This document shows, in pieces, positions 14,789 through 52,206 of a DNA stretch of 64,000 bases (position 1 is its first letter; every line of letters starts with the position of its first letter). A program made the position numbers and the translations under genes. The stretch is from a virus, in the IMG/VR virus record IMGVR_UViG_3300045988_167906. One strand, written 5' to 3'. The notes beneath the pieces are model-generated. The model had not been told where the DNA came from, searched no databases, and saw only the letters and a program-made list of their open reading frames with translations.

Positions 14789-14825
14789 GAAAAATATAAA
14801 AAAATTTGATAAAATATATATAAGA
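14789..14825 (+). promoter_or_regulatory. conserved phage middle/late promoter motif (AAAATATAAAAAAATTTGATAAAATATATATAAG)
   Basis: One of about 20 occurrences of TTTTATAAAAAAATATTATAAAATATATATA-like elements ~25-40 nt upstream of gene starts. Confidence 0.5.
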
Positions 14826-14851
14826 TAAAAGATAAGAAAGGAAAATCTTAA

Positions 14852-15319
14852 ATGCCAAATTATCGTGAACAGAATGGCGAAGTTGGTAGCTACAACAACT
14901 TAAAAGTCTGGGTCCTTAATGGTAATGAGTTCCAAAAGAAGCTACTCACCAAGGGCGGACTTAATGCTACTACTATCTACTGCCTTAAAGAATATGATCC
15001 CTATCACAAGCTGCTGCCCGACTGCATGTACGCCTATATGATTAACCCTAATGACCGCGACAACCTCTACTGCCTTGGCACTATGGGCAATTATGGAAAA
15101 GTGAATTTCAAGAAAAATATTGCCGCGTGCGAAAAATTCTCACTTGCCCCTAAGCCTACTCCTAAAACCACATTTGAAGTAGATACTACTAATTATGGTA
15201 ACGCCCCTACTCTTGCAACCATCAATGATATCCTTGCCGATATTCAAAAATGGAATACACAAATTAATTATGCCGACTATACTAAAACAGTAGATAAATA
15301 TTTGGAGGCTCTTACATGA
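14852..15319 (+). CDS. hypothetical protein (155 aa)
   Basis: RBS GAAAGGAAAATCTTAAATG. Confidence 0.5.
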   Translation: MPNYREQNGEVGSYNNLKVWVLNGNEFQKKLLTKGGLNATTIYCLKEYDPYHKLLPDCMYAYMINPNDRDNLYCLGTMGNYGKVNFKKNIAACEKFSLAPKPTPKTTFEVDTTNYGNAPTLATINDILADIQKWNTQINYADYTKTVDKYLEALT

Positions 15320-15525
15320 AAAAGTTTATGTAGTTTGTCCTAGGCGATAATAATATATTTTTCTATGCCGTTAATGATATTGTAAACGTAAAATTCTATA
15401 CTCAAAATGAATTAAATAATGAATTAACTATGGAACTTACAACTAAATCTAACGGCATTGAAACATTTACATTTGATAACATAAGAGACTATCAAGACGC
15501 TATAGACGCATTTAATGACCTATGA
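15316..15525 (+). CDS. hypothetical protein (69 aa) with in-frame TAG at codon 6
   Basis: GGAGG RBS, ATGA overlap with the upstream gene. Open only if TAG is sense. Confidence 0.45.
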
Positions 15526-15818
15526 TTAATCCATATTTCACATTTACAACAGATAATAAAAATTTCTGCTGTTATAAAACATCAGCCATCCTCTATATTA
15601 GTTTTTACACTGACTCAAATGAAAAATATAGAATGCAAATCCAAACAACAGAAAATACTGCATTAGATACTATTGCCCCTTATACATTTAAAAGCAAAAA
15701 ATATTGGGATGCTGCACAAGATAAATGGATGGACATTATGCGGGCCGCACGCAATGAAGCAGCAAATAATACCAATATGAAATATTATGGTAACTATGGA
15801 GATGTTGACCCATGGTAA
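15522..15818 (+). CDS. hypothetical protein (98 aa)
   Basis: ATGA overlap. Confidence 0.45.
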   Translation: MINPYFTFTTDNKNFCCYKTSAILYISFYTDSNEKYRMQIQTTENTALDTIAPYTFKSKKYWDAAQDKWMDIMRAARNEAANNTNMKYYGNYGDVDPW

Positions 15819-16012
15819 AAATCTACACAGGCCTGCAACGCCAAAAGCATGTCAAGACGACAAACATTCGCACAATCCGTTTCTACCCTACTGAACGCAC
15901 CATTAATCTCTACTATTGGAATAATCAAAAAGAAACTATCAAATTTGATGATGAAGATTACTGCCGTGCCGCATATAAAAAACTACACGAATATATTGCT
16001 TATCCGTTTTAA
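15812..16012 (+). CDS. hypothetical protein (66 aa)
   Basis: Overlapping start. Confidence 0.4.
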   Translation: MVKIYTGLQRQKHVKTTNIRTIRFYPTERTINLYYWNNQKETIKFDDEDYCRAAYKKLHEYIAYPF

Positions 16013-16067
16013 TTGAAAAATAAATAAAAATATTATAAAATATATATATAAATGATAGGAGAAAAAA

Positions 16068-16358
16068 ATGGATAAAAATTTATTCGCTAAATTAACTACT
16101 CTTACATCAGAAGCAGAAGTCAATAAAGAGCGTCGGGCAACTGAAAAGGCAGAACAAATCATCGCAAATAACACACCGGCCATGCTGCAAGCGGCAACAA
16201 ATGGTGCTTATGCTTATACCATTGTCATTTCTCCCGATGATACTCCCTCGTCGAACAATTATACCGTTAAGAAACTTCAAGAAATTCTTAATTCTAATAA
16301 CTTTACAACTCAATATTTCCAAGATAATACAATGATTGTTAGGTGGCGTGACGCATGA
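16068..16358 (+). CDS. hypothetical protein (96 aa)
   Basis: Late promoter at 16018-16052 plus RBS AGGAGAAAAAAATG. Confidence 0.5.
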   Translation: MDKNLFAKLTTLTSEAEVNKERRATEKAEQIIANNTPAMLQAATNGAYAYTIVISPDDTPSSNNYTVKKLQEILNSNNFTTQYFQDNTMIVRWRDA

Positions 16359-16630
16359 ACCTTGATGAATACCTTGATCGTGCAACTGAAATGCGAAACG
16401 AGATTGCCGCATATGATGAGAAGATAGTACGCCTTTTGGACGAAAGAGTTCAATTGGCAAAAAACTTGGTAGAACTTAAAAAAGAACATTCTCGTCCGGC
16501 ATATACACCAATAGTAGAAGAAAAGAAGATAGAATATTTAAGCACTCTAACTTCTTATCCAGATTTGATTAAGATGTTATGGCCTATGATTATGGGTTAT
16601 AGCCGCATCCCCTATAACGAAAGGATTTAA
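16355..16630 (+). CDS. chorismate mutase (AroQ, type II)-like protein (91 aa)
   Basis: EMRNEIAAYDEKIVRLLDERVQLAKNLVELKKE...PIVEEKKIEYL follows the AroQ R/D/LL/ER/K...P-x-x-E pattern. Confidence 0.5.
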   Translation: MNLDEYLDRATEMRNEIAAYDEKIVRLLDERVQLAKNLVELKKEHSRPAYTPIVEEKKIEYLSTLTSYPDLIKMLWPMIMGYSRIPYNERI

Positions 16631-16631
16631 T

Positions 16632-16787
16632 TATGAAAATGAAAAACAATGTCTCCGGTAAGACTTACACGATCGCACAAATCTTCCGAGACGATAGCGG
16701 ATATTTCCGTGTCCTTTACTTTGATCCCGAAGCAAATAGATGGCTAACCGAAAGCCTCAACTTCTTTACTCCAGTAGAAAACTAACT
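16632..16787 (+). CDS. hypothetical protein (51 aa)
   Basis: Tightly coupled. Confidence 0.35.
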
Positions 16788-16812
16788 AAAATTAAGAAAG
16801 GAATAGACGTAA

Positions 16813-18222
16813 ATGTATAATGTATATGTTTGTAAAGTAAAAAACATTAGACCTGCGGAGAATGCTAATCGTCTGAATGCCTGTGAAGTATTTGGTATTA
16901 CTACCATTGTTGATAAATCCGTGAATGAAAATGACCTCTACGTCTATTTCCCCACGGATGGTCAAATTAGTGAAGAGTTTGGTAAGGCAAATGACCTCTT
17001 CCGCCGCAAGGATGAGAATGGTAATCCGGCGGGCGGTTTCATTGACCCTGTGAAGCGTAATATTGGTGCAATTCGTCTTCGCGGTAATAAGTCCGAAGGT
17101 CTTATCCTTCCACTTACTTGCCTTACACCTTTTGGTGACATCAGTAATCTGGCCGAAGGTGATATTGTATCTACCTTCAATGGTCATGTAATCGCCGAGA
17201 AGTATGTGCCGATGCATAAGCCCAGAGTTTCAGAGTCTACTGCACGCGGCGAACACAACCATAAGTCTGCAAAGAAATGCCGCATTAAGTATCCATTCTT
17301 CGCAGAACATATTGATACTCCCCAGCTTCGTTTTAATATGGATATGTTTAAGCCGGGCGACATTATCTGCTTGACCGAGAAGGTCCATGGTACCAGTTCT
17401 CGAAACGCATATCAGACTGCAATTGTTGGCGAAAACGGTTTCTTCCTTACCAAGCTTATTGCACATAGCAACTGGCTGCCGAAGAAGTGGCGTATGTCCG
17501 CACAGTCTCACCTTACCCCTAAAACTGAAATGCGTTATCTGATTGGTACTCGCCGCACTGTCCTTACTAACAATAGCACCGGCGGCTTTTATGACAATGA
17601 TGACTTCCGTAAGGCTTGGGGCGAGCGTTTCAAGGGTAAGCTTCTGCCTAATGAGGAATGCTTCGGTGAAATTGCAGGCTTCTACAAAGATAATTATGGC
17701 GGTGCAGTTCCTATCATGTCTCGTGGAGATAATACTAAAACAAAAGATAAGCAATTTATTAAGCAGTATGGTAAGACTACCACTTTCTCTTATGGATGTA
17801 CTGAAACTGGTTATTACACTTATGGTGATGGTACTCATGAAGAAAGACCGCTTAACCGCTATTTTGTTTACCGTATGACTTATACTACTCCTGAAGGTGT
17901 AGTAATTGAATATCCTTGGGACCTTGTTAAGCAGCGTGCAGAACAGATGGGTTTTGAAACTGTGCCTGAACTGGAACGTTTCATCTACACCACTGAAGAG
18001 GATTTCCTCGCACGGATTGCCAAGTATGAGGATATTCCTTCTACGATTGATTCTTCTCATGTAATTGAAGGTGTAGTTATTCGCAAGATGAATGGTACAC
18101 GTTTCGACGTTGCAAAAGATAAATCTTATAATTTTAAGGTACTTGAGAATCTAATTAAGGTTGATGCCGAAGTGCCGGACATGGAAGAAATTGAAGAAGA
18201 AATGACTCTGGAGGATAATTAA
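16813..18222 (+). CDS. ATP-dependent RNA ligase (Rnl2-like nucleotidyltransferase)
   Basis: Motif I LTEKVHGTS (KxHG) as in T4 Rnl2 EKIHGTN, and a large C-terminal domain. No in-frame TAG. Confidence 0.6.
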   Translation: MYNVYVCKVKNIRPAENANRLNACEVFGITTIVDKSVNENDLYVYFPTDGQISEEFGKANDLFRRKDENGNPAGGFIDPVKRNIGAIRLRGNKSEGLILPLTCLTPFGDISNLAEGDIVSTFNGHVIAEKYVPMHKPRVSESTARGEHNHKSAKKCRIKYPFFAEHIDTPQLRFNMDMFKPGDIICLTEKVHGTSSRNAYQTAIVGENGFFLTKLIAHSNWLPKKWRMSAQSHLTPKTEMRYLIGTRRTVLTNNSTGGFYDNDDFRKAWGERFKGKLLPNEECFGEIAGFYKDNYGGAVPIMSRGDNTKTKDKQFIKQYGKTTTFSYGCTETGYYTYGDGTHEERPLNRYFVYRMTYTTPEGVVIEYPWDLVKQRAEQMGFETVPELERFIYTTEEDFLARIAKYEDIPSTIDSSHVIEGVVIRKMNGTRFDVAKDKSYNFKVLENLIKVDAEVPDMEEIEEEMTLEDN

Positions 18223-18748: not shown

Positions 18749-18835
18749 TCAAAGAGCCAGAGCAAATCTGGCTCTTTTATTTTTATAAAAAAATTTGTTA
18801 AAATATATATATAAAAATGAGGGAGAAAATAAATT

Positions 18836-20859: not shown

Positions 20860-20952
20860 GCCGATTGGTTAACGCCATTCGGCTTCTTTTATTTTTATAA
20901 AAAAATATTGTAAAATATATATAAAGAAATGAGAAATAAAAAAATTAACAAG

Positions 20953-22782: not shown

Positions 22783-22973
22783 ATTAATGTTGGCAATTAT
22801 CCATTCTACAATAGACCCGCTATGGTTTCTCATTCCGGGTCTAATTCTATTAGGAGTAGCTATTTATTTACGTTTACATTTAGAAGATTAAATTTTATAT
22901 AGAACTATTTTCTAAATATATTATACAAAAAAATTTTAATTATGTCAAACCATTTTGGGCAAAGGAGGACAAT

Positions 22974-23414
22974 ATGTCATAGGACTATTTATATGAATTT
23001 TGGTCGCCAGAAGGCGATTATAAGAAAGTGTGTGCAACACCTGCCGAAGCACGAAGATATGATATCACTGGCAGCATGTTAATGGATGTAGCTTGTGATT
23101 GCTATGAGAAACATTCAGATAAGTATCGCGATGTAGCTGATGTATTGAGTCAGTGTTATTATACTAAAACTTTAATTACAGATGAAGCTTGTTATAAAAA
23201 GGATAAAGATTGTTTTAGACTTACAGGTTATACTCCTTATGGAGAATATAGCACTTGGCTTATTGCTAATGGTTCTAATAGTGTAGAGCAATTTGAGCAT
23301 TGGATGAAAGAAGAACTAACAGCTGATTGGTGGCCGGAGCATCGTGATGAATACGATGATAAGGAAGATTTCTATAACGCTTGTTATTGTGTAATAGAAA
23401 AAATTGAAAAATAA
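22974..23414 (+). CDS. hypothetical Cys-rich protein (146 aa) with in-frame TAG at codon 3
   Basis: AGGAGG RBS precedes ATG 22974, and TAG at 22980 is in frame with listed ORF 23028-23414. Confidence 0.45.
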
Positions 23415-23460
23415 AAAATAATATTATATAATATTTATATAATAAAGGAGGAAATATTAT

Positions 23461-26320: not shown

Positions 26321-26413
26321 TAAGAGACTCCTCTTTTATTTTTATAAAAAAATATTATAAAATATATATATAAAGAAATGAGAGATATAAAGAATTTTAA
26401 AGGAGACGATACT

Positions 26414-28998: not shown

Positions 28999-29058
28999 AT
29001 TTGAAAAAAATAAAAAAATATTATATAATATTTATATAAAAGATAAGGAGTAATTAAT

Positions 29059-30860: not shown

Positions 30861-31006
30861 GGTTAGTATAGATATTTCTAAATATTTGCCAGTTTAGAAA
30901 ATCACTTCCTTTACGAAATAGACCTCGGTTATCCGGGGTCTATTTTATTTTTATAAAAAAATATAATAAAATATATATATAAATTAAAAGGAAAAGGTGA
31001 ATTAAA

Positions 31007-32671: not shown

Positions 32672-32750
32672 TTTAAATTCTTGCCAAAATTGAATACTCG
32701 AAAATTTATAAAAAATTTGATATAATATATATAGAAAGGATGGGAGAGAT

Positions 32751-37997: not shown

Positions 37998-38100
37998 ACA
38001 TAGATAAAAAGGGATAAAGATTTGATTCTTTATCCCTTTTTTATTTTTATAAAAAAATATTATAAAATATTTATAGAAAAAATAAAGGGAGTAAATAATC

Positions 38101-39744: not shown

Positions 39745-39815
39745 TTGAAATTTTTAAAATAAAATAATATAATATATACATAAAATAAAGGAAAAATAAA
39801 AGGAGTTATTAAATT

Positions 39816-40211: not shown

Positions 40212-40377
40212 TAAATGAAGGGTCGGGAAACCGACCCTTTTGTTTTGCCATTTTAAGGTGCTGCTCCGGCCAAGGTCAGGCGTCTATACCGAACATCCAA
40301 ATTGAAAGGCGTTTTAAGAATTTTTTTGACTAAATGCTAATAATATGGTAAAATAATATAAAAAGGAGTAGATAAAA

Positions 40378-41205
40378 ATGAAAGTTTGTTTAAGACATAA
40401 TCAAGAAGAACAGTATCTCCAAAAGGCAGATTAGATTGAAGTTAAATGGGCATATATTGATCAACTTCTTGATTTGGTAGAGAAATATCCTGATAAAGAT
40501 TTTATTATAGATGCTCCAAAAGGCAAACCAATGGATTGGAAAAGTATAGCCGCATGCAAGGCCGGCCTGCATTAGGGTCATACCTTCTATATTCGGCTGC
40601 ATGATCTAAATCCTTTGCTTACATTACGCTGGATGGAGAAATACGATTTTAAATTTTTTTATAGTGAACCGGCAAAAACATATTATGAGCTGTATAATCT
40701 AAAAAAATTAGGTGTATCATATGCTTATATTGATGCTCCCATTTTCTTTGATTTAAATGAAGTAAAAAAAATAGATATTCCATTAAGACTTGTGCCAAAT
40801 CGGGCATATATTCAAGGGCATATTCCACAACTGAGTGGCTTACATGGCACTTGGGTCCGTCCGGAAAAACTTGATATTTATGAACCATATTTTGATGTTT
40901 GTGAATTTGAAAATGATGGACCTACGCAAGAACGAGCCTTTTACCGCATTTATTTTGAAGATAAGTCTTGGCCGAATGACATGAATTCATTAATTTTTGG
41001 TCTTAATACTAATATTGATGATAGATTAGTATATGAAGGTCTTGATGAAATGCGTCTTAATTGTAAACAAGTATGTGAAACACCTAAGCCCTATTGTCAA
41101 ATGTGTGATAAAGTATTATATTTCGAACGGGCCGGACGTCAATGGGCCAAGGAGTACATTGCTGAACATGAGGGAGAAGACCAAGAACAGATAAGCCCTA
41201 ATTGA
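40378..41205 (+). CDS. hypothetical protein (275 aa) containing two in-frame TAGs
   Basis: AAAAGGAG RBS precedes ATG 40378. TAGs at 40432 and 40573 are in frame with listed ORF 40615-41205. Confidence 0.5.
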
Positions 41206-41259
41206 TTATTTAATAAAATTATTATATAATATTTATATAATAATAGAAGGGAATAAGAA

Positions 41260-42258
41260 ATGGGTAAAAAAGTTTTAGTTCCTGATTTTACTGAAAATTG
41301 TAGAGGGCTTTTGGAAGGGCTATTCAAGATTAGTGAAGTAGGTCTTTTAAAAGCTCTTGGTGATTTTGTATCTAATAAATATTCTAATGTAGAAATTACA
41401 GAAGATTATGTATACGCTGAAGGCAATATTCCTGTAATGCTTATCGCACACGTAGATACTGTATTTAGACAGCCAATTCGTCAATTTACTTATAATGAGA
41501 AAAGAGCTGTTTATAAAGGCAAGGAAGGTCTTGGAGCAGACGATAGAGCAGGTGTTTTTGCGATTATTCAAATTTTGCGTAAGAAGTATAGACCTTATGT
41601 CCTTTTTACAACAGATGAAGAAATGGGCGGTTATGGTGCCCATATGTTCATTGAAGCACATCCAGTAGCCCCAGATATTAAATATATGATTGAGCTGGAT
41701 AGAGCTGGTGAAAAAGATTGTGTTTTCTATGAATGTGAAAATTTTACATTTGTAGATTATGTTGAAAGTTTTGGTTTTAGGCAAGCAATTGGATCATTTA
41801 CAGATATTAGTATTATTATGCCTGAATGGGAAATTGCCGGAGTAAATTTATCAGTTGGCTATCATCATGAACATACTCAAAATGAAGATTTACATATTAG
41901 AACATTGTATAATACAATTAATAAAGTATGTAAAATGCTTGATGATATCGAAAATGCAGATAAATATAAGTTTATTCCTAGTAAGGAATATCTTCAGTGG
42001 ATTACATTAACTAATAAATATCATATGCCTTATGATTTTGATGATGATAAACTTCTTAATTGTAGTTTTTGTAATCAGTTGTATTATGAGTGGGAAGATT
42101 TTCCTCTTGATATTGATGGAGTAAAAGTTCATGTATGTCCTGAATGTTTGGCCCTTGATCCTAATATTCATCAATGTGAAAAGTGCTATAATTTATTTTA
42201 TTCAAATAATATGAGAGAAAGAGTATGTGATAAATGTCGAGTCCCTGTTGTAATTTAA
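41260..42258 (+). CDS. M20/M28-family zinc metallopeptidase-like protein with C-terminal zinc-ribbon tail
   Basis: IAHVDTV, GADDRAGV, TTDEEMGG resemble M20 (ArgE/DapE/PepT) metal-binding motifs. C-terminal CxxC x4. Confidence 0.5.
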   Translation: MGKKVLVPDFTENCRGLLEGLFKISEVGLLKALGDFVSNKYSNVEITEDYVYAEGNIPVMLIAHVDTVFRQPIRQFTYNEKRAVYKGKEGLGADDRAGVFAIIQILRKKYRPYVLFTTDEEMGGYGAHMFIEAHPVAPDIKYMIELDRAGEKDCVFYECENFTFVDYVESFGFRQAIGSFTDISIIMPEWEIAGVNLSVGYHHEHTQNEDLHIRTLYNTINKVCKMLDDIENADKYKFIPSKEYLQWITLTNKYHMPYDFDDDKLLNCSFCNQLYYEWEDFPLDIDGVKVHVCPECLALDPNIHQCEKCYNLFYSNNMRERVCDKCRVPVVI

Positions 42259-42338
42259 ATGAAATTAAAGAACAAGTAAAGAAGGTTATTGCCTATTCAT
42301 AGGGGCTGGACATTAACCTTTTAAATATTGATAAATTA

Positions 42339-43664
42339 ATGAATGATTGGGAAGAGAATAAATGCAAATTTTATAGTAGGCTTCCTGGTAATAAATTAAT
42401 TTATCAAAGCCATACACCTATTACAATGTCTATTTCAGAAGATGATAAAAAAGCTGAATTAGATTGTTTTATTGATAATATTCGTTGGCGTTATGGCTTA
42501 TTTGAATTAAGAGATTTTGTTGAAAATAATAGAAAAAATTTTTATAATAATATTTTAAATGAAGATTATTCAATGAATAATGGAACTGTTATTCCAAAAG
42601 GAATGAAAATAATTAAAGCATTTAAATATTTTGTAGAAGATAAGGAAATTCTTACTGAAATACAAGATAAAGCTAGTATGCTTATTCAAAATACAAAAAT
42701 TAGTGGATATTTTTGTATGTCAGTTCATCCATTGGATTATCTTAGTTTGAGTGAAAATACACATAATTGGCGGTCATGCCATGCCCTTGATGGAGAATAC
42801 CGTGCTGGTAATTTATCTTATATGGCAGATAATTGTACAATTATATGCTATATTAAGAGTGAACATGATGCGGTTTTACCTAGATTCCCAGATGATGTAC
42901 CATGGGCAGATAAGAAGTGGCGTATGCTTCTTCATGTATCTGATGATGACACTATGGTTATTTCAGGTCGGCATTATCCTTATGAAAGTAAAGGATTGCA
43001 AGATTTTGCTCTTGAGTTATATGAAACATTTTTCGGGCAAGGATACCGTTTTACTGATTGGTGTCATGAAAAATATAATACATTTACAATAAATGATAAA
43101 ATCTTTTCTAATGATAGCCGTTTATTGCCTACTGGATATGTAATGACTCCAGATATTAAGGTTATTGTTGACCCAAAAAATCCTTTACATTACAATGACC
43201 CTCTTCATTCTACTGTATATGACTATTGGTTCAGTATTGCTTATAGTGAACCTTATTGGCATGAAGAAGGTATTCCGCAAGATAAATTAATTCTTCCAAG
43301 AACTCGTACCACTACTAAAGTTAATATAGGACATGATGTAAAATGCTGTATTTGTGGTAAAAATGATTGTGTTTTAACAGATACGATGCTTTGTATTGAT
43401 TGTGAACTTAAATATGGTACAGAAGAAACAGAAGATTTTACTTTCTGTAGAGAGTGCGGTAGACGTATTTATATTCCTGAAGCAATATCATTAGATGATG
43501 ATGATGGTTATGTATGTCGCAATTGCGGAGATAATTATTAGATATGTGATAATTGTAATATGTATTATGATAAAAAAGATTTAATTTATGATGAAGAAAA
43601 CAATGCTTACTACTGTGAAGCTTGTTATGATGAAATTTTATTTGATAGGGAGAATAATGAATAA
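42339..43664 (+). CDS. paralog family C member 3, extended through TAG 43539
   Basis: VHPLDYLSLSEN...W.SC...YRAG core. Read-through adds CDNCNMYY...CEACYDE, another CxxC pair like its paralogs. Confidence 0.55.
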
Positions 43665-44079: not shown

Positions 44080-44361
44080 ATGAAGAAGATTATAATTCCT
44101 CAAGAAGAAGTAAATTATCTTTAGAAATTAAATTATGAAATTGAAGCTAGAAAAAATTTATGTCAATTTTTAATTAGACAAAATATTAGAAATAAAGCTT
44201 TTGATGATTATCATAATGAGTATATAGAATTATTTGCTGAATATGAATTAGCTAAATTAGAATTAGAAAATAATTATATTAAACCAGTAATTGGAAATCA
44301 AACTTGTAATTGGAATTTAGATTTTTAGACAAACGAGGTAAATATTGATGTTATTTCCTAA
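44080..44361 (+). CDS. small protein (93 aa, two in-frame TAGs) preceding the radical-SAM gene
   Basis: RBS AAAGGAATAAAAATATG. Open to TAA only with TAG as sense. Confidence 0.4.
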
Positions 44362-45688
44362 GATAGTTAATATTCCTGAAGAATTTTCTGATTTTATAAG
44401 TCGTTTATATTCTAATGATTGCTTAAATTCTTAGGCTGTATTTACATTAACTTTTTAGGTTACAGATGATTGTTGTCTAAATTGTGTTTATTGTTATCAA
44501 GGACATAAAGGAAAACATAAATTATCCTTTAATACAGCTAAATAGATGATTGATTAGATACTAACAAGAGACAGTAAAGTTATTAATTATATTGACTCTT
44601 ATAAAATACCAGGAGTAGTAATAGAATTTATAGGTGGAGAGCCATTTTTAGAAATTGAATTAATTGATTAGATTACTGATTATTTTATTAATAAAATGAT
44701 TGAATTGCGGCATCCTTGGGCCACTAAATATAAAATTTCAATTAGTTCTAATGGTATTTTATATTTTGAACCAAAAGTACAAGAGTATATTAAAAAAAAT
44801 AATGAAAATTTAAGTTTATCAATTTCTATTGATGGAAATAAAAAATTACATGATGCTTGTAGAGTTTTCCCTGATGGTAGTGGTAGTTATGATAAAGCAT
44901 TGTCCGCCGCATTACATTATAGCCATAATTATAACAAATGGATCGGGAGTAAAATGACTATCTCTCCATTTAATATAGATTATTTATATGACGCTGTTTT
45001 AGAAATGATAAACAATGGTTATAGTCAAATCAATCTAAATTGTGTGTATGAAAAAGGTTGGGAACTTAACCATGCCACTACATTATATTATTAGTTAAAA
45101 AAAATTGCTGATTATTTATTAAATAATGATTTGTGGGATAAAGTTTATTTATCTATTTTTTATATTAATGATGGAAGTAAAAATTTATCTAATGATAATT
45201 GGTGCGGCGGGAATGGTCGTATGTTAGCCTTAAATTGGAAAGGTAAATATTATCCCTGTTTACGTTATATGGAAGATAGCATAAGTAATCAGCCAGAATA
45301 TTATATTGGAGATATTTATTAGGGAATAGGCCAAGATAATTTAACCATCAATAGATTAAAAGATTTATCTGAAATAACAGTTATTAGTCAATCTCCTCAA
45401 AAATGTTTAGATTGTGAAATTTCTGGAGGATGCTCTTGGTGTACAGCTTATAATTATCAAGAAACAGGTAATGTTAATAAAAGAGTTACTTATATTTGTG
45501 ATATGCATTATGCTATAGTTCTAGCTTCTTTATATTATTTAAATTCTATTTTAAAAAAAATAAACTCGAATAAACGATTTAAATTTAATGGAGATATGGA
45601 AAAAGCATTAAAAATTATCTCTTAGGATGAATATAATATAATAAAGGAGGCAATGACAAATGAAAATAGGCACGACAATAACTTCTGA
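44348..45688 (+). CDS. radical SAM / SPASM-domain peptide-modifying enzyme (anSME/sactisynthase-like) containing eight in-frame TAG codons
   Basis: DDCCLNCVYCYQ (CxxxCxxC), FIGGEPFL (GGE SAM motif), C-terminal CGGNGRMLALNWKGKYYPC...CLDCEISGGCSWC (SPASM). Listed ORFs 44696-45094 and 45131-45322 are two fragments of this single frame. Confidence 0.8.
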
Positions 45689-46310
45689 TAGATTCAATGA
45701 ATTAAAGAAAAAAATAAAGGCTGAATGTTTACGTCGTAAATATATAGGTAGTGTAAGTTCATATGGAGGGACTTCTTATGATTATACTACTTAGCCTAAT
45801 AATGGAAAAGTTATTTCAAAAGAACATATAACAAAACTGGTAGAACCTATGGCGGCAATAAATATTGAAAATCAGAATGAAAATATAAATGTTATTAAAG
45901 ATGATGATTTAAGTACATTAGAGGCAAAAATTACAGCTTATCAAGCTATGGGATTAACTGATTCGAATACTGGATGTTCAGCTTATTGCACTGGATTATG
46001 TTCTACTAGTTGTAGTGAAAGTTGTGGAGTACAATGTCAGGGAACTTGTTTAGGCAGTTGTAAGAATACTTGCCAAGGAGGCTGCCAAAACACTTGCAGA
46101 GGCGGATGTCGAAGCAGTTGTAGTGGCAGTTGTGATGGATGCAGTGGTTCTTGCTCAGGTGGATGCCAGACTGGGTGTAGCGGATGCAGCGGTAGCTGTA
46201 CAAGACATTGTGCTAACGATTGTACTGGATTGTGTGGAGGAAGTTGTTCTGGATTATGCACAAGTTGTACTGGCACATGTAGTGGAACTGGTAGGAATGA
46301 ACCATTATAA
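45660..46310 (+). CDS. RiPP-like precursor: ~105-aa leader plus ~110-aa core of 35 cysteines in (C-x3)/(C-x2) repeats; one in-frame TAG
   Basis: AGGAGG RBS then ATG 45660, in frame (through TAG 45792) with listed ORF 45849-46310. Core is CSAYCTGLCSTSCSESCGVQCQGTCLGSCKNTC..., ends TAA. Confidence 0.65.
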
Positions 46311-46428: not shown

Positions 46429-46998
46429 ATGGATATTTAGATTTTATCTATTTATGAATATTTATTTCAAAAGTATATTTTACATAAAGATATATTAAAA
46501 CAATATAAAGGTATAGAATTATATAAAATTATGGAAATTCAAGATAAAATTTTTATTAATAGATATAAATTATTATTGTAGATTATTAATAATAATTATA
46601 ATTTTGATAATTAGTTAATATACACTGATTTTAATAATTTTAATTTTGAACAAAATATTAGTTATATAAATTATTGTTTAAAATTACTATTTAATAATTT
46701 TAAAAAAATAGATAAACAATTTTGGAAAATTTTAGATTAGATTTATTTTTTAATTAATGGTAAAACTAATTTATTTTTATTGTTGGGAAATTTTTATTTG
46801 AATAAAAGTAATTTATAGCAATTTACTGAAGAAATAAAAAAAATTCCTGGAATTAAAGAATAGCTCTCTTTTAGTTATACAGCTTTAAATTTAGCTATTG
46901 AAATTGATAAAGTTGCAGAAAATAAAAATTATCTTAATGAATTAATTGAAATTATTGATAATCATTCACAAGAAAAAATTTATAAATTTGATATTTAA
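46429..46998 (+). CDS. hypothetical protein (189 aa) with six in-frame TAGs in extremely AT-rich DNA
   Basis: A 570-nt frame free of TAA/TGA despite ~85 percent AT. Ends TAA. Confidence 0.45.
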
Positions 46999-47267
46999 TA
47001 AAAATTAATATATAATATATATACAAAATAAAGAAAATAAAGACTTTAACAGCAAAGAAATGGACAGTAAATCCGTCGCGAATGCTACGCAGGTTCGAAT
47101 CCTGCCCTCCCCACCACTATATGGCGGAGGTAGGGAAGCGGTTAAACCCAGCGGAACCAAACCAAATAAGTCTTGTTTGAATAAAATAATTATTTGATTT
47201 TTAATAAAAAATATTATATAATATTTATATGAAAAGAGAAAGGCTTTTACAGCAACTTAAACTTTTT

Positions 47268-47342
47268 TCCGTGGTCGAATAACTGGATAATTCATCAGAG
47301 TTAATTCTGAAAATAAGGATTCAAATTCCTTCCTTGGAGCCA
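47268..47342 (+). tRNA. tRNA-like gene with non-canonical 6-8 nt anticodon loop centred on TTAA; CCA encoded
   Basis: Acceptor tccgtgg/ccttgga (6 of 7), D stem gaat/attc, anticodon stem tcaga/tctga with loop gttaat, T arm aagga-ttcaaat-tcctt, discriminator G plus CCA. Late promoter directly upstream. Confidence 0.4.
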
Positions 47343-47433
47343 AGTATAAAAAGTCTTGGGTAAATTTCTTAATTTGAAAAAATTAAAAAAATATAATATA
47401 ATATATAAGTAATCAATAAGAAATTAAATAAAT

Positions 47434-47582
47434 GCTCTCGTAGCTCAATTGGTCAGAGCCGGCGACTTATCCAAAATTAGTTTAAATGGTAAAATAGTTT
47501 ATGCGCAAGAAAGATGTAAGTTCAAATCTAACATTTTGGGCCAAATCGCCAGATGTGGGTTCAAATCCCGACGGGAGCACCA
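47434..47582 (+). tRNA. tRNA interrupted by a ~78-nt insertion after the anticodon loop; the insertion itself has tRNA-like ends (ccaaaat...attttgg-g-cca, 47471-47543)
   Basis: Outer acceptor gctctcg/cgggagc plus A plus CCA, D arm gctc-aattggtca-gagc, anticodon stem ggcga/tcgcc split by the insert, T arm with ttcaaat. Confidence 0.4.
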
Positions 47583-47608
47583 TATTCCAATAGAAAGGAA
47601 TTAAAATA

Positions 47609-47848: not shown

Positions 47849-47903
47849 TAAATTTGATTTTTAATAAAAATATTATTATATTATATAGAGAGTGAGGGAA
47901 AGA

Positions 47904-48863
47904 ATGACTATTATTGAATTATTTGCGGGAATTGGGACATAGATTTCAGCTTTGGTTAAAATTGATCCAAATATTAGATCAATAGGTATTAGCGAAATTG
48001 ATGAACGACCATTGAAAGCATATAAAGTTTTGAATGGTGAATATAATAATTTTGGTGATATCACAAAAATTGATATTTTACCCTATGCAGATATTTGGAC
48101 TTATTCTTTCCCTTGTACTGATTTATCTATTGCAGGGAAGCAAGAAGGTTTTCAAGGAAAAAATTCTTCATTAATTTATGAGGTATATCGTCTCTTGCTT
48201 TCTTCTCCAAAGCCAAAAATTCTTTTAATGGAAAATGTGGCCAATATTTGTAATAATACTTTTATGCCAAAATTTCAAGAGTGGATTAATAGTTTAGCTG
48301 AATTAGGTTATGTATCTAGCTGGAAGAAAATAAAAGCTTATGAATATGGCGGAGCAACTATTAGAGATCGTGTATTCATGGTTTCAGTAATTTCTCCTTT
48401 AAAAAAGTTTATTTTCCCTTTAGCTGAAAATGTTAAAACTACTTTAAAAGATTTTTTAGAGCCAATTAACGAAGAATATTTCATTGATAGTTATGATGGC
48501 CCAAGTGATATTACTACACCATATTATAATGGAGCTAAAAAACTCTGTGATTATAAAAATGGTGGTCAAGGAAATCGAATTTATTCTATATTTGGGCAAG
48601 GAGTTACATTAACTGCTTCTGGTGGAGGAAAAGCCGGATCAAGCGGTGGTTTGTATCTTCGTAATAATAGTATTTATAAACTTACTCCAATTGAGATTTG
48701 TAAAATAATGGGTTGGACTAAAGCAGAAGCAGAAAAGATTTGTTCTGTTTTAACCCCTAGAGAAGTGGGTTTTTGCTTGGGCAATGCCATTGATAGAAAT
48801 GTGTTAATTCATATTTTTAAAGGGATAAAGGAACAATATTATGATGAATTGGGAGAAAAGTGA
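47904..48863 (+). CDS. DNA (cytosine-5)-methyltransferase; TAG at codon 13
   Basis: Motif I ELFAGIGT (upstream of the TAG), motif IV FPCTDLSIAGKQEG (PC motif), motif VI LMENV. Confidence 0.75.
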
Positions 48864-49467: not shown

Positions 49468-49529
49468 AAAATTGAAAAATTAAAAAAAATATTATAAAAT
49501 ATATATACAAAATAAATGAGAAATAAATT

Positions 49530-49606: not shown

Positions 49607-49616
49607 CTGTCCCACC

Positions 49617-49835: not shown

Positions 49836-49900
49836 GCCGGTGTAGCCGAATGGCATAGGCGAATGGAATTGAACTGAAAATTTTTTGGTTCAATTCCATT
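49836..49900 (+). pseudogene. 5' part of a tRNA gene (acceptor gccggtg, D arm gcc-gaatggcata-ggc, then a 13-bp perfect hairpin) whose 3' part lies at 50773-50800
   Basis: gccggtg pairs with caccggt of the downstream T-arm/acceptor/CCA fragment. The HNH ORF lies between them. Confidence 0.35.
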
Positions 49901-49947
49901 AATGAATAATTTTTAATTTCTAATATATTATGAAAGGAGAGATTGTT

Positions 49948-50760
49948 ATGGCTCGTTCAGATATTTTAGAAAAAGAAAAAGAAATTCGTTAGTGGATAAA
50001 CGAAGAAAAATCTAAACGTTATATATGTGAATAGTTGCATTGTAAACCTGAAACTTTAAATTCTTATTTGGAGAAAATGAATATTGAATATAAGGGATAG
50101 CCTTATAAAAAAGGATAGAATAAAAATCCTCGATGTTATAAGCCAGCTATTTATTATATTGATAATCATAAGTATATTAGCTCTTCTGTTTTAAGACAAA
50201 AATTAGTAAAAGATGGATTGAAAAAAGACAAATGTGAAATTTGTGGTATTTCTATGTGGCAAGGAATTAAATTACCTTTAGAATTACATCATAAAAATGG
50301 AAACCATTTTGATAATGATTTAAATAATCTACAAATTTTATGTCCTAATTGTCATTCAATTCAAAATGGAAATAGTGGAGCAAATATCGGTAAATACGCG
50401 GGATTGCTGGAATAGGTAGACAACTCATCTTTAGACGGTGAGGCCGACAGGTGTGAGGGTCCGAGTCCCTCATCCCGCACCAATCATATTCAAAAGAAAA
50501 ATTATTGTTGTGATTGTGGAAAAGAGATATGTTTAAAAGCTATTAGATGTAAATCTTGTGCATCTAAATTTAGACAAAATTCTAAATCTCCAGATAGAGA
50601 AATTTTAAAAGAATTAATTAGAACTACACCATTTGTAACTATAGGGAAAATGTATGAAGTTTCTGATAATGCTGTCAGAAAATGGTGTAAAAATTATGAT
50701 TTACCTTATTAGTCATTAAAAATTAAAAAAATTTCTGATGAAGATTGGAAAAATATTTAA
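49948..50760 (+). CDS. HNH homing endonuclease with N- and C-terminal HTH-like domains; six in-frame TAGs
   Basis: CEICG...ELHHKNGNHFDNDLNNLQILCPNCH is an HNH motif. A single 813-nt frame runs from the AAAGGAG RBS through six TAGs to TAA. Listed ORF 50218-50415 is an internal fragment. Confidence 0.65.
50398..50482 (+). other. tRNA-like element (gcgggat...atcccgc-A-CCA, T arm gaggg-tccgagt-ccctc) embedded in frame inside the HNH ORF
   Basis: A 7-bp perfect acceptor pairing, T arm and CCA are all present. D and anticodon arms do not fold. Confidence 0.3.
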
Positions 50761-50772
50761 TATATAAGGTGT

Positions 50773-50800
50773 GAAGGTTCGAATCCTTTCACCGGTACCA
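50773..50800 (+). pseudogene. 3' tRNA fragment (T arm gaagg-ttcgaat-ccttt, acceptor caccggt, A, CCA) immediately after the HNH gene
   Basis: See 49836-49900. Confidence 0.4.
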
Positions 50801-51293
50801 ACAGTGAAGTAGTAGCTATACTCATTATAATCAAGGCTCGGTGGTTGGTGGCTCCATCGTTATGTAAATAAGCCATATGTATATTACTTCTTGGTGTAAT
50901 GGAAGCATACTGCCTGAAAGAGGCGGAGGTATTGGTTCGATCCCGATAGAAGGAGTAATTAAAGCTAGGAAATGATAATCGCCTAAATAAATAAAGGATT
51001 ATTATTAAAGGTTATTTAGATTAAGGAAGCGGTTGAAGTTATTACTTACTTGATTATAAAATAACATGACCGCAAGACGAGTGTTTGAAGCTTGTCTATA
51101 AACAAATTCTTCATATGTTGTCTTTTTATACTTTCTCTTTGGTTGTTTCTTGACATATAAGTAAAAACGGAAAGGGAGTTAAAGGTTTAGCTATAAAACC
51201 GGTTTGTTTTTAATAAGATTTTTAAAATTAGGTGACAAAATCTTATTTGAGTGACGCTGCTCAGGAGGGTCCGGAACCTCTGAAATGCGATAT

Positions 51294-51370
51294 GCGGTTG
51301 TAGCTCAGTTGGTAGCAGCATTTGCCTTTTAAGCAAAGGGTCGGGAGTTCGAGCCTCCCCAACCGCACCA
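51294..51370 (+). tRNA. tRNA-Lys (TTT)
   Basis: Acceptor gcggttg/caaccgc, anticodon loop ctTTTaa, T arm gggag-ttcgagc-ctccc, CCA encoded. Confidence 0.8.
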
Positions 51371-51740
51371 GGTCAAGTTTGAGAAATTTCATAAAGCATC
51401 GCTGACGTTAAATGGCACTTATATGAAAACGCGTAAGTAATATAAGATAGCAAAATTCTCGTAGTTCATCCTATTAGAGAATCTTAAAGAGTAATGGCAA
51501 GGTCATATCGCGGGAGACCGTGCGTATGAGATACCAATAAAGGTAGCACATCTTGTGTTGAACAAGATAAAAGATGGAAAGGATACCTGCCATACTTGGA
51601 CGGTAAAAGAAGGCGTTGAATGTAATCGAAAAATATTCCGTTGGTTCTTAGGGGAGCGACGTAACAGTGAAACCCGAGGTTTGAGTTACCTTGTCCAAAC
51701 GCTATGTATAGTCAAAGTCTAGGCAACAAGGTTTTAATTT

Positions 51741-51817
51741 GCGGGATTAGCTCAGCTGGTTAGAGCGTTTGGTTTACACCCAAGAGGTCATTGGTTCAAA
51801 TCCAATATTCCGCACCA
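51741..51817 (+). tRNA. tRNA-Val (TAC) copy 1
   Basis: gcgggat/attccgc, loop ttTACac, T arm attgg-ttcaaat-ccaat, CCA encoded. Confidence 0.85.
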
Positions 51818-51820
51818 TAA

Positions 51821-51858
51821 GCAGGGCAACGCGGGTTCGATCCCCGCCTGGCGCACCA
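51821..51858 (+). other. tRNA 3'-half-like element (T arm gcggg-ttcgatc-cccgc, acceptor ctggcgc, A, CCA) with no matching 5' half
   Basis: Directly abuts tRNA-Val copy 1. Confidence 0.4.
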
Positions 51859-52064
51859 TTTGAGTTAAAAAGTATAAATCTTATAAACTCCCTGTAAAAT
51901 CAGGCGGACAGATGGACCGATAGTACCATTATTGTGGAAGTCAGGCAGGTCCATTTTACTGGGCTTACTGTAAAAGCCAGTTTAATACACCCTCCATACC
52001 CAATGAGGAATTTTTATAAAGGTCTATTTAATTTTTCTTGGTAGTTTAGTTAAATAGACTGTAT

Positions 52065-52141
52065 GCGGGATTAGCTCAGTTGGTTAGAGCGTTTGGTTTA
52101 CACCCAAGAGGTCATTGGTTCGAATCCAATATCCTGCACCA
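52065..52141 (+). tRNA. tRNA-Val (TAC) copy 2
   Basis: Near-identical to copy 1 (three substitutions). Confidence 0.85.
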
Positions 52142-52206
52142 ATAAATTTGAAAATTTAAAAAAAATATTATATAATATATATATAATAATAAAGGAGATA
52201 TTTGAA

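What the first reader, a model, noticed from the sequence alone, without database searches (positions are those of the whole stretch)
14789..52190. Conserved phage-specific promoter TTTTATAAAAAAATATTATAAAATATATATA(A)AGAAATGAG upstream of ~20 middle/late units, including small RNAs and the tRNA array
Near-identical ~35-nt AT-rich elements occur at about 12490, 14789, 16018, 18779, 20889, 23405, 26338, 28995, 30948, 32690, 38043, 39745, 41205, 46990, 47200, 47380, 47855, 49480 and 52150.

Each typically follows a terminator hairpin and lies 25-45 nt before an RBS. Three of them (46990, 47200, 47380) drive tRNA or tRNA-like small RNAs. One (49480) precedes tRNA-Phe.

None occur in the early block, which uses canonical TTGACA-17-TATAAT. 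This implies a phage-encoded sigma factor or RNAP specificity switch. The copy at 12490 points into a 300-nt ORF-free, A-tract-phased region ending at the 12815 terminator (possible ncRNA).
Basis: seen in the sequence. Interest (0 to 1): 0.5.

Follow-up and report, generated by a model that had tools for sequence, protein, structure and literature searches.

The report
Host-type promoters repeated along a phage
About twenty near-identical AT-rich elements in this uncultivated gut phage are real promoters, but they have the standard layout read by the host's main RNA polymerase, so they are a stereotyped, probably strong, version of an ordinary promoter rather than evidence for a phage-specific polymerase switch.

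Summary
All 19 listed sites exist, plus one more at 11953. All 20 are on the + strand, between genes, and far above chance.

Aligned, they read TTGAww – 17-nt A/T-only spacer (A7 tract, then TATTA/TTTGA) – TATAAT/TAAAAT – ATATATA. This is the sigma-70/sigma-A layout of Gram-positive bacteria, with its -16 element.

- Five copies have TTTATT instead of TTGAnn. In these the T-tract of an abutting terminator hairpin fills the -35 position.
- The same core (TTGA-N7-A7-TATKA-TATAAT) lies upstream of rpmE, rpsD, rplI, lepA, metG, dnaX, mreB and tRNAs in gut Clostridia genomes.
- A cultured relative, Enterococcus phage VRE9_3, uses very similar promoters for its non-late genes and has no annotated RNA polymerase.
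- AT-type promoters also occur in, and at the head of, the early block.

So "phage-specific" and "implies a phage sigma or RNAP" are not supported. Host sigma-A recognition is the best reading (about 0.7).

Caveats:
- The invariant A7 tract and ATATATA discriminator are not general host features.
- A gene labelled "sigma factor" (weak structural support) lies 4–5 kb left of the window, at the head of the late operon.

Seen in passing: TAG read as Gln, a UUA suppressor tRNA, and circularly permuted tRNA genes.

The parts
11953..11988 (+).
   Evidence: 43.2 bits; conserved in L069
12490..12525 (+). AT-type promoter TTGACT-17(TATGA)-TATAAT. It points into the ORF-free structured region 12526-12850. 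A terminator hairpin lies about 35 nt upstream.
14787..14822 (+). AT-type promoter TGGAAA-17(TTTGA)-TAAAAT, upstream of 14852-15319
16013..16048 (+). AT-type promoter TTGAAA-17-TAAAAT, upstream of 16068-16358 and the RNA ligase unit
18776..18811 (+). Terminator-fused promoter: hairpin, then TTTATT-17(TTTGT)-TAAAAT
20888..20923 (+). Terminator-fused promoter: hairpin, then TTTATT-17-TAAAAT
23404..23439 (+). AT-type promoter TTGAAA-17-TATAAT, upstream of the SAM synthetase gene (23461-25584)
26335..26370 (+). Terminator-fused promoter: hairpin, then TTTATT-17-TAAAAT
29001..29036 (+). AT-type promoter TTGAAA-17-TATAAT
30944..30979 (+). Terminator-fused promoter: hairpin, then TTTATT-17-TAAAAT, upstream of 31007-32671
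32698..32733 (+). AT-type promoter TCGAAA-17(TTTGA)-TATAAT
38040..38075 (+). Terminator-fused promoter: hairpin, then TTTATT-17-TAAAAT, upstream of 38101-39744
39745..39780 (+). AT-type promoter TTGAAA-17-TATAAT
41202..41237 (+). AT-type promoter TTGATT-17-TATAAT, upstream of the peptidase gene 41260-42258
46988..47023 (+). AT-type promoter TTGATA-17-TATAAT, driving the circularly permuted tRNA gene at 47040-47180
47194..47229 (+). AT-type promoter TTGATT-17-TATAAT, driving a degenerate tRNA-like RNA (47268-47342)
47374..47409 (+). AT-type promoter TTGAAA-17-TATAAT, driving the tRNA with a 73-nt insert (47434-47582)
47854..47889 (+). Degenerate copy (TTGATT-17-TATATT, 20 bits), upstream of the C5 DNA methylase gene 47904-48863. 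The orthologue in L096 is a clean TTGATT-17-TATAAT.
49472..49507 (+). AT-type promoter TTGAAA-17-TAAAAT, 40 nt upstream of tRNA-Phe (49541) and heading the tRNA array
52148..52183 (+). AT-type promoter TTGAAA-17-TATAAT inside the tRNA array. It is upstream of the part that contains tRNA-Sup(UUA) at 54509-54582.

Best explanation
The elements are about 20 sigma-A (sigma-70-type) promoters read by the host RNA polymerase holoenzyme.

**Anatomy.**
- A -35 element TTGAww.
- A 17-bp spacer made only of A and T. It contains an A7 tract at -24..-18 and the Gram-positive '-16' positions T-17 A-16 T-15 (T/G)-14.
- A -10 element TATAAT or TAAAAT.
- An A/T-only discriminator ATATAT, with a probable A start about 7 nt downstream.
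- An A-rich leader carrying the ribosome-binding site.

**How they are used.** They restart rightward transcription every 2 kb or so across the phage's non-structural region. That region holds auxiliary enzymes, small RNAs and the tRNA array with a stop-codon suppressor.

**The five TTTATT copies.** Here an intrinsic terminator abuts the promoter, so its T-tract doubles as a weakened -35 (TTTATT). This makes compact terminator-promoter units.

**Shown.** The architecture, strand and position; conservation in relatives; the occurrence of the same core upstream of host housekeeping genes.

**Inferred.** Use by host sigma-A, promoter strength, the start site and the timing.
For: **Geometry.**
- T-35 in 19/19, T-34 in 17/19, G-33 in 14/19 and A-32 in 18/19 copies, in a stretch otherwise free of G and C.
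- The spacer is exactly 17 bp in all copies.
- T-17 in 18/19, A-16 in 16/19 and T-15 in 18/19 copies.

**Family-wide.** 373 PWM hits in 962 kb of related phage contigs. The -35 is TTGATT, TTGAAA, TTGATA, TTGACT or TTGACA. The -10 is TATAAT in 344.

**Host genomes.**
- It lies 25-70 nt upstream of asd, metG, rpmE, tsaD, lepA, ruvC, mreB, rpsD, rplI, dnaX and tRNAs.
- Independent promoter-like sites in those genomes show the T-R-T-G -16 element.

**Use at time zero.** AT-type promoters stand at the head of the early block, divergent from the sigma-like gene, in two lineages. Intermediates lie at window 2030 and 6322.

**Cultured relative.** Enterococcus phage VRE9_3 shares synteny. It has more than 25 TTGAAA/TTGACT-(AT spacer, TGA)-TATAAT promoters in its non-late region, none in its 50-kb late operon, and no annotated RNAP.

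**Selection.** Orthologous promoters are conserved base for base while flanks diverge 8-25%.

**The TTTATT class.** A hairpin abuts the promoter in 35/49 TTTATT copies against 54/294 TTGAnn copies.

**Not a translation signal.** Four copies precede RNA genes.
Against: - The invariant A7 tract, T rather than G at -14 (12 T, 4 G) and the ATATATA discriminator are not general features of host promoters. In independent host sites A is only about 0.4 at -24..-18 and G-14 is 0.57.
- The early-block promoters match the host consensus better. The AT-type is therefore a distinct, strongly constrained flavour, which could reflect an extra phage factor.
- The shift from one flavour to the other at about 11.9 kb is sharp. 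It coincides with the first in-frame TAG codons, which suggests a different temporal class.
- A phrog_5767 'sigma factor' gene with a host-consensus promoter lies next to the early block.
- There are no transcription start or expression data.
Confidence: 0.7

Rival explanations
1. These are middle-class promoters that need a phage factor. Host RNA polymerase would be re-targeted by a phage protein to promoters with the A7 spacer and the ATATATA discriminator. The factor could be the sigma-like phrog_5767 protein made from an early promoter, or another small early protein. Early TTGACA/TGTG promoters would be shut off. This resembles SPO1 gp28, T4 MotA/AsiA or Thermus phage P23-45 gp39/gp76.
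For: - There are two sharply separated promoter flavours.
- The AT-type departs from the host consensus at -31/-30 and -14, yet is more strongly conserved than the host positions require.
- TAG-containing genes and the suppressor tRNA lie only in AT-type units. The early block is TAG-free.
- Early promoters carry operator-like palindromes.
Against: - The motif keeps TTGA and TATAAT at 17 bp, which unmodified sigma-A should recognise.
- The same core drives host housekeeping genes.
- AT-type promoters head the early block.
- The sigma-like gene is the first gene of the late packaging operon, in this phage and in the Enterococcus phages. This points to a late role.
- Pfam, PDB sequence search and Foldseek give no sigma signal.
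- Stereotyped flanks are also seen around perfect-consensus early promoters in L009. Stereotypy alone therefore does not call for a special factor.
Confidence: 0.2
2. The repeat is primarily not a promoter. It would be a dispersed recombination or mobility cassette (like the promoter-stem-loop PeSL elements of T4-type phages), or a binding array for a nucleoid or replication protein. Its resemblance to a promoter would be secondary.
For: - Near-identity over about 40 nt, including non-contact positions.
- Some copies are paired with hairpins.
- Gene content differs between close relatives in the same region.
Against: - Strict co-orientation with the genes.
- A fixed 22-53 nt distance to start codons, or 30-40 nt to tRNA 5' ends.
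- The hairpins differ in sequence between copies while the promoter part is conserved.
- The information content peaks exactly at the -35, -16 and -10 positions.
- No indel in relatives was found to be bounded by the copies (not tested systematically).
Confidence: 0.05

Closest known systems
Gram-positive 'extended' sigma-A promoters: -35 TTGACA, -16 TRTG, -10 TATAAT (Graves & Rabinowitz 1986; Helmann 1995; Voskuil & Chambliss 1998; cited from my own knowledge)
   Same: - The -35 and -10 hexamers and the 17-bp spacing.
- T-17, R-16 and T-15 upstream of the -10.
- AT-rich surroundings.
- The same core is found upstream of housekeeping genes in Clostridia.
   Different: - G-14 is mostly T.
- The last two bases of the -35 are A or T instead of CA.
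- An invariant A7 tract in the spacer and an ATATATA discriminator, neither of which is a general host feature.
Early promoters of coliphage T5 (PN25, P25, P26) and of Bacillus phage SPO1: very strong host-sigma promoters with conserved AT-rich flanks (own knowledge)
   Same: - Many near-identical copies in one phage genome.
- Read by the host holoenzyme.
- Conservation extends beyond the hexamers into the spacer and the initially transcribed region.
- They serve early/auxiliary genes and tRNA regions.
   Different: - A different host phylum.
- The particular A7-TATTA spacer.
- Strength and timing have not been measured here.
Non-late-gene promoters of Enterococcus phages VRE9_3, EF1, EF5 and H1 (found here; no published promoter analysis known to me)
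   Same: - Shared synteny: early block; sigma-like gene, YonG-like gene, terminase, portal; the phrog_18912/peptidase cluster; a tRNA array.
- Promoters of the form TTGAAA/TTGACT - AT spacer - TGA - TATAAT - AT-only discriminator - AAGGAG leader.
   Different: - The Enterococcus copies keep the TG of the extended -10.
- Their discriminator is TAATTATAAAG.
- They lack the strict A7 tract (PWM scores 14-29 bits against 37-51 bits here).
T4 MotA/AsiA-dependent middle promoters and SPO1 gp28 promoters (phage-directed specificity switches; own knowledge)
   Same: - A second promoter class placed after a block of consensus early promoters.
- An early-expressed sigma-like gene is present in the genome.
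   Different: - T4 middle promoters replace the -35 by a MotA box at -30.
- SPO1 gp28 promoters (AGGAGA / TTTNTTT) do not resemble the host consensus.
- Here the host -35 and -10 are retained at canonical spacing.

Membership tests
Sigma-70/sigma-A-dependent promoter | A -10 hexamer close to TATAAT | tested here: met
   TATAAT in 11 and TAAAAT in 8 of 19 copies. TATAAT in 344 of 373 family-wide hits. The anchor regex required TAWAAT, but the PWM and hexamer-free checks agree.
Sigma-70/sigma-A-dependent promoter | A -35 hexamer close to TTGACA, 17 +/- 1 bp upstream of the -10 | tested here: met
   TTGA at exactly 17 bp in 12 of 19 copies, with G-33 in 14/19. The 5 exceptions are TTTATT, formed by a terminator T-tract. 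These positions were not used to select the sites.
Sigma-70/sigma-A-dependent promoter | The Gram-positive -16 region (T-R-T-G before the -10) | tested here: inconclusive
   T-17 in 18/19, A-16 in 16/19 and T-15 in 18/19 copies, but G-14 in only 4/19 (T in 12). G-14 is 0.34 family-wide and 0.57 in host sites.
Sigma-70/sigma-A-dependent promoter | Located upstream of, and co-oriented with, transcription units | tested here: met
   20 of 20 on the coding strand and intergenic. They lie 22-53 nt before start codons, or 30-40 nt before tRNA 5' ends.
Sigma-70/sigma-A-dependent promoter | The same sequence type is used by host genes | tested here: met
   The core pattern lies upstream of rpmE, rpsD, rplI, lepA, metG, dnaX, mreB, ruvC, tsaD, asd and tRNAs in gut Clostridia/Bacilli genomes.
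Sigma-70/sigma-A-dependent promoter | Transcription starts 6-9 nt downstream of the -10 and depends on host holoenzyme | not testable with these tools
   No transcriptome or biochemical data are available.
Phage-specific promoter (phage sigma or phage RNAP; for example T7-like, T4 gp55, SPO1 gp28/gp33-34, phiKZ/AR9 nvRNAP, SPbeta YonO) | A consensus distinct from the host sigma-A promoter | tested here: not met
   Canonical -35 / 17 bp / -10.
Phage-specific promoter (phage sigma or phage RNAP; for example T7-like, T4 gp55, SPO1 gp28/gp33-34, phiKZ/AR9 nvRNAP, SPbeta YonO) | Absent from host chromosomes | tested here: not met
   More than 120 loci in bacterial genomes carry the core, many on large chromosomal contigs next to housekeeping genes. 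The ATATATA tail is confined to phage-like copies (22 of 127).
Phage-specific promoter (phage sigma or phage RNAP; for example T7-like, T4 gp55, SPO1 gp28/gp33-34, phiKZ/AR9 nvRNAP, SPbeta YonO) | A cognate sigma or RNAP encoded by the phage | tested here: inconclusive
   - None among about 70 window proteins.
- A 311-aa phrog_5767 'sigma factor' homologue lies 4-5 kb left of the window (E 1.3e-46).
- The rest of the roughly 185-kb genome could not be read.
T4-type MotA/AsiA middle promoter (sigma appropriation) | The -35 is replaced by an activator box centred at -30, with the sigma-70 -10 kept | tested here: not met
   The -35 TTGA is retained in most copies. The TTTATT variant tracks abutting terminators rather than forming a separate box.
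PeSL-type mobile promoter/stem-loop cassette (T4-type phages) | A promoter plus stem-loop that flanks variable gene modules and mediates shuffling | not tested
   Hairpin-promoter units exist (6 of 20). Indel boundaries in relatives were not analysed systematically.

The most novel reading that the evidence does not exclude
The AT-only promoters are a distinct temporal class. They would become dominant only after a phage early protein remodels host RNA polymerase; that protein could be the sigma-like phrog_5767 product or a small host-takeover protein. Because this class drives the suppressor tRNA, the permuted tRNA genes and the first TAG-containing genes, it would be the transcriptional trigger of the phage's switch in genetic code.
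Probability: 0.15. Interest if true: 0.6.

Novelty: new member of a known kind. Interest (0 to 1): 0.27.

Why it matters
**What the finding is worth in itself.** It is ordinary: a large phage that carries many copies of a strong host-type promoter.

**Practical value.**
- It gives a precise promoter model (TTGAww-N5-A7-TATKA-TATAAT-ATATATA) for a very abundant, uncultivated family of 180-190-kb human and animal gut phages of Clostridia.
- It helps define their transcription units.
- It places the suppressor tRNA and the odd tRNA genes under that promoter class.

**What it warns against.** Near-identity of promoters within a phage genome does not by itself indicate a phage-encoded polymerase specificity.

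**What deserves follow-up.** The by-products are more interesting than the promoters:
- The family reads TAG as Gln.
- It carries a UUA suppressor tRNA.
- It encodes circularly permuted tRNA genes next to an RNA-ligase/kinase/phosphatase set. I found no description of permuted tRNA genes in phages.

Tried and rejected
- **Megablast of 14-34 kb against 50,697 phage records:** no match.
- **tblastn of the 547-aa paralogue:** no match. There is therefore no close annotated relative. Distant ones were found only through the RNA ligase and the sigma-like protein.
- **Rfam:** at gathering threshold only tRNAs. At E up to 1, nothing credible for the 12.5-kb transcript or for the RNAs at 47 kb.
- **T4 late (TATAAATA), SPO1 gp28/gp34, phiKZ/AR9 and T7-type promoters:** considered and rejected, because the hexamers and spacing are those of sigma-A.
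- **TTTATT copies as an activator-dependent subclass without a -35:** considered. The association with abutting hairpins (71% against 18%) explains them more simply.
- **Walking along the genome to look for an RNAP (for example YonO-like):** not possible. Look-ups are restricted to window proteins and to returned homologues.
- **Papers on recoded gut phages:** the two consulted contain no promoter analysis.

Full report
**1. The observation**

- A search with an 18-nt core of the motif (up to 3 mismatches) finds 25 matches against 1.47 expected.
- Anchoring on TA[TA]AATAT[AT][TA]A and printing the flanks shows 19 + strand copies that align without gaps.
- A weight matrix built from them scores all 19 at 37-51 bits. 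No minus-strand site reaches 25 bits. Sequence shuffled within 100-nt blocks has a mean maximum of 8.3 bits.
- A twentieth, degenerate copy lies at 47854-47889 (20 bits).
One copy (11953-11988) was missed.
- The copies span 11.95-52.2 kb, about one per 2 kb.

**2. Anatomy**

Counting positions from the -10 hexamer:
- -35 region: T-35 in 19/19, T-34 in 17/19, G-33 in 14/19, A-32 in 18/19 copies.
- Then 17 bp with no G or C in most copies.
- Near-invariant A at -24..-18.
- T-17 (18/19), A-16 (16/19), T-15 (18/19), T/G-14 (12/4) and A-13.
- -10 hexamer TATAAT (11 copies) or TAAAAT (8 copies).
- Then ATWTATA and an A-rich leader with the Shine-Dalgarno sequence.

The -35, spacer and -16 positions were not used to pick the sites. 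This is the sigma-70/sigma-A geometry, with most of the T-R-T-G '-16 region' described for Gram-positive promoters (own knowledge: Graves & Rabinowitz 1986; Helmann 1995; Voskuil & Chambliss 1998).

**3. Two sub-forms**

- Fourteen copies have a TTGA-type -35. Five (18799, 20911, 26358, 30967, 38063) have TTTATT and are immediately preceded by a GC-rich hairpin.
- Across 370 family-wide hits, a hairpin abuts 35 of 49 TTTATT promoters but only 54 of 294 TTGAnn promoters.
- TTTATT is therefore the T-tract of an intrinsic terminator occupying the -35 position. This is a compact terminator-promoter unit, not a separate recognition class.
- The hairpin sequences differ from copy to copy and drift in relatives, while the promoter part is held constant.

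**4. Context in the window**

- Positions 1-11 kb hold small genes behind TTGACA-N12-TGTGn-TATAAT promoters. These have ordinary spacers, a shared leader (AAAGGAAAGGAATTGATA) and, in three cases, a palindrome TTGTTCCAAGRGAACA at the start site.
- From 11.95 kb on, only the AT-type occurs.
- Genes behind AT-type promoters are auxiliary: RNA ligase, SAM synthetase with an intein-like insert, a metallophosphatase, a peptidase, a C5 methylase and a kinase-like AAA_33 protein.
- Four copies precede RNA genes, so the motif is a transcription signal and not a translation signal.
- The tail-fibre block at 56-64 kb has none.
- 'Middle/late' is therefore not supported. 'Not the very earliest block' is all that position suggests.
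- 'None in the early block' is not quite right:
  - Window 2030 (TTGAAA-attatagaaaaaaataa-TATAAT) and 6322 (TTGACA-aattaaaaaaaatttga-TATAAT) are intermediates.
  - The first rightward promoter of the early block, about 3.7 kb left of the window, is AT-type with a perfect TTGACA (34-37 bits).
  - The same holds in a relative whose sigma-like protein is only 52% identical (L009).

**5. The phage and its relatives**

- The phage uses TAG as a sense codon in part of its genes. For example, codon 21 of SAM synthetase falls in GHPDKVCD-TAG-VSD, where MetK proteins have Gln (own knowledge).
- The exact window protein 1194-1517 occurs on 376 blocks of public assemblies, including human-gut contigs of 180-188 kb.
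- In these loci the matrix finds 373 sites, almost all on one strand per locus. The -35 hexamers are TTGATT (125), TTGAAA (78), TTTATT (49), TTGATA (30), TTGACT (21) and TTGACA (20). The -10 is TATAAT in 344.
- When sites in non-close loci are selected on the hexamers alone, the A7 tract, T-17 A-16 T-15 K-14 A-13 and the ATATATA tail still emerge.
- Orthologous promoters in contigs 8-25% divergent are identical or nearly so.

**6. Is it phage-specific?**

These are overwhelmingly gut Clostridia (Eubacteriales, Oscillospiraceae, Ruminococcus, Lachnospiraceae, Clostridium).
- About one sixth of the sites (22 of 127) are phage-like, with the ATATAT tail. These are presumably phage contigs binned into MAGs.
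- The others sit 25-70 nt upstream of host genes.
- Ten of those genes were confirmed with NCBIfam as asd, metG, rpmE, tsaD, lepA, ruvC, mreB, rpsD, rplI and dnaX. Two further sites precede tRNAs.
- The -35 to -10 core is thus an ordinary promoter of the likely host group.
- Caveat: in 116 independent promoter-like sites from the same host loci, the -16 element is clear (T-17 0.62, T-15 0.66, G-14 0.57) but the A tract is weak (A about 0.4).
- The invariant A7 tract, T-14 and the AT-only discriminator are therefore elaborations of the phage family. The early-block promoters are in fact closer to the host consensus.

**7. Search for a phage sigma or RNAP**

- About 70 window proteins show no sigma or RNAP domain. 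The only DNA-binding hit is an AbrB/MazE-type protein at 4960-5412.
- Left of the window, divergent from the early block, the genome encodes in order: a 311-aa protein matching phrog_5767 'sigma factor' (E 1.3e-46), a YonG-like protein, the large terminase, a homing endonuclease and the portal.
- The promoter of this gene is of the host-consensus type (TTGACT-17, TGTGT-TATAAT).
- Homologues (25-59% identity) occur in Enterococcus phages EF1/EF5/H1/VRE9, Brevibacillus Sundance, C. difficile phiCD211 and Geobacillus E3. There they are labelled sigma factor, LuxR or response regulator by automatic annotation.
- Pfam finds nothing. A profile of 30 homologues finds no solved sigma.
- The AlphaFold model has mean pLDDT 66.7, good only for residues 150-300.
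- I regard it as a sigma-region-4-like DNA-binding protein of unproven function.
- Its conserved position as first gene of a roughly 50-kb promoter-poor late operon points to late genes rather than to the AT-type promoters. In SPbeta the homologous late operon is transcribed as one unit from a single start (PMC5467207).

**8. A cultured comparator**

- Enterococcus phage VRE9_3 (137.7 kb) shares several features with the window:
  - the early block, including a phrog_20187 gene like window 9817-10674;
  - the sigma-like/YonG/terminase/portal order;
  - the phrog_18912-peptidase-phrog_18912 cluster (window 38101-43541);
  - a tRNA array with interspersed small ORFs.
- No RNA polymerase is annotated anywhere in its genome.
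- Its early block has TTGACA-17-TATAMT promoters.
- Its replication and nucleotide-metabolism region has more than 25 promoters of the form TTGAAA/TTGACT - AT spacer - aaaaTGA - TATAAT - TAATTATAAAG - AAGGAG. The late operon has none.
- The lineage thus generally uses stereotyped, AT-rich, extended -10 host-type promoters for non-late genes. The window's phage has a more uniform version.
- In L009 even the perfect-consensus early promoters have uniform flanks (AAAAGTTG-TTGACA...TGT-TATAAT-AATAATGTAAGATAAAG). Uniform flanks therefore do not by themselves call for a special factor.

**9. Conclusion**

- **Best explanation (about 0.7):** host sigma-A promoters, probably strong, that restart transcription along the auxiliary-gene and tRNA region. 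Five are fused to terminators.
- **Main rival (about 0.2):** the same sequences form a temporally distinct class favoured after a phage protein remodels RNA polymerase.
- For the rival: the sharp change of flavour at 11.9 kb; the restriction of TAG-containing genes and the suppressor tRNA to AT-type units; the over-conservation of non-consensus positions.
- Against it: the retained -35 and -10; AT-type promoters at the head of the early block; use of the same core by host genes.
- Only 5'-end mapping, in vitro transcription or genetics can decide.

**10. By-products**

- ARAGORN at relaxed threshold and Rfam find a tRNA with anticodon UUA (54509-54582) that standard output omitted.
- The RNA behind promoter 46988 is a circularly permuted tRNA gene.
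  - Its order is: leader, anticodon arm, variable region, T arm, 3' acceptor strand, ACCA, 6-7-nt linker, 5' acceptor strand, D arm, trailer. Leader and trailer are complementary.
  - The same layout, with different and co-varying acceptor stems, recurs behind AT-type promoters in at least seven other phage loci.
  - When the two parts are re-joined in silico, ARAGORN calls full cloverleaves: Tyr-GUA here, Sup-UUA in L060, Pro-UGG in L096.
  - A review of permuted tRNA genes in the library does not mention bacteriophages.
- The window also encodes an RNA ligase, a kinase-like protein, a phosphoesterase and an RlaP-type nucleotidyltransferase.

Noticed in passing
window 47040-47180; also L020, L005:1278, L047:12289, L060:9079(-), L229:1148(-), L058:9768(-), L096:3081: Circularly permuted tRNA genes. 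The order is: leader ..ACAGCAA, anticodon arm, T arm, 3' acceptor strand, NCCA, short linker, 5' acceptor strand, D arm, trailer complementary to the leader. Acceptor stems co-vary between phages. Re-joined in silico, ARAGORN calls complete tRNAs (Tyr-GUA in the window, Sup-UUA in L060, Pro-UGG in L096). I found no description of permuted tRNA genes in phages.
   Followed up: partly
window 54509-54582: A tRNA with anticodon UUA (ochre-type suppressor, able to read UAA and UAG by wobble). Rfam found it, as did ARAGORN at a relaxed threshold. It is absent from the standard tRNA list.
   Followed up: partly
window-wide; for example 12847-14477 (-), 23521-23523, 44080-46310, 49948-50760, 56168-63321: TAG is used as a sense codon in a subset of genes (up to 11 per gene). 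In SAM synthetase it falls at a conserved Gln. The early block (1-12 kb) has none. The phage belongs to the recoded gut phages.
   Followed up: partly
window 47434-47582: A tRNA gene with a 73-nt insert in the anticodon loop. The insert itself looks like a small AT-rich tRNA-like hairpin set. Depending on the splice point the anticodon would be CCA (Trp) or UCA (opal suppressor).
   Followed up: partly
window 12526-12850: An ORF-free transcript-like region behind promoter 12490. It has a closing helix GGGUAGAG.../...CUCUACCC, a GC-rich hairpin, a long AT-rich interior with AATTTAAT-like repeats and a terminator. The fold z-score is -3.4 and there is no Rfam match. It could be an ncRNA or an origin-like region.
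   Followed up: partly
L117:3914-4849 (-), about 4-5 kb left of window position 1: A 311-aa protein of phrog_5767 ('sigma factor') with a C-terminal zinc ribbon. It is the first gene of the leftward YonG-like/terminase/portal operon. It has more than 7,000 homologues in metagenomes. Structural support for a sigma fold is weak.
   Followed up: yes
window 601, 4434, 10826 (and leaders at 2952, 4924, 6322, 6965, 8008): Early promoters share an operator-like palindrome ATAATTGTTCCAAGRGAACA at the start site, and a common leader AAAGGAAAGGAATTGATA before the ATG. A similar leader occurs in Enterococcus phage VRE9_3.
   Followed up: no
window 23461-25584: A SAM synthetase gene interrupted by an insert of about 310 aa that begins with Cys and ends ...HN/C, which is intein-like. 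The Pfam C-terminal domain is split in two stretches.
   Followed up: partly
window 31007-32671, 38101-39744, 42234-43664 with 41260-42258: Three paralogous Cys-rich proteins of about 450-570 aa (phrog_18912; shared motif HPLDY..SDN..WxSC) flank an M28/M42-like peptidase. The cluster is conserved in Enterococcus phage VRE9_3.
   Followed up: no
window 44345-46310: A radical-SAM enzyme with 8 in-frame TAG codons, followed by a 216-aa protein whose C-terminal half is a run of CxxxC/SGSC repeats. This may be an enzyme-substrate pair.
   Followed up: no
window 22897-22925 (-): A perfect TTGACA-17-TGTATAAT promoter on the minus strand, inside the otherwise rightward block. It may drive an antisense or small leftward transcript.
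   Followed up: no
window 16813-18222, 27863-28399, 35006-35812, 36010-36789: An RNA ligase, an AAA_33 kinase-like protein, an RlaP-type nucleotidyltransferase and a metallophosphoesterase. Together they resemble an RNA repair/ligation toolkit and may relate to the unusual tRNA genes.
   Followed up: no
window 63326-63468: TTGAAA-16-TATAAT followed by a long hairpin with a T-tract just before the RBS of the next tail-fibre-like gene. This is a promoter-terminator (attenuator-like) arrangement in the late region.
   Followed up: no
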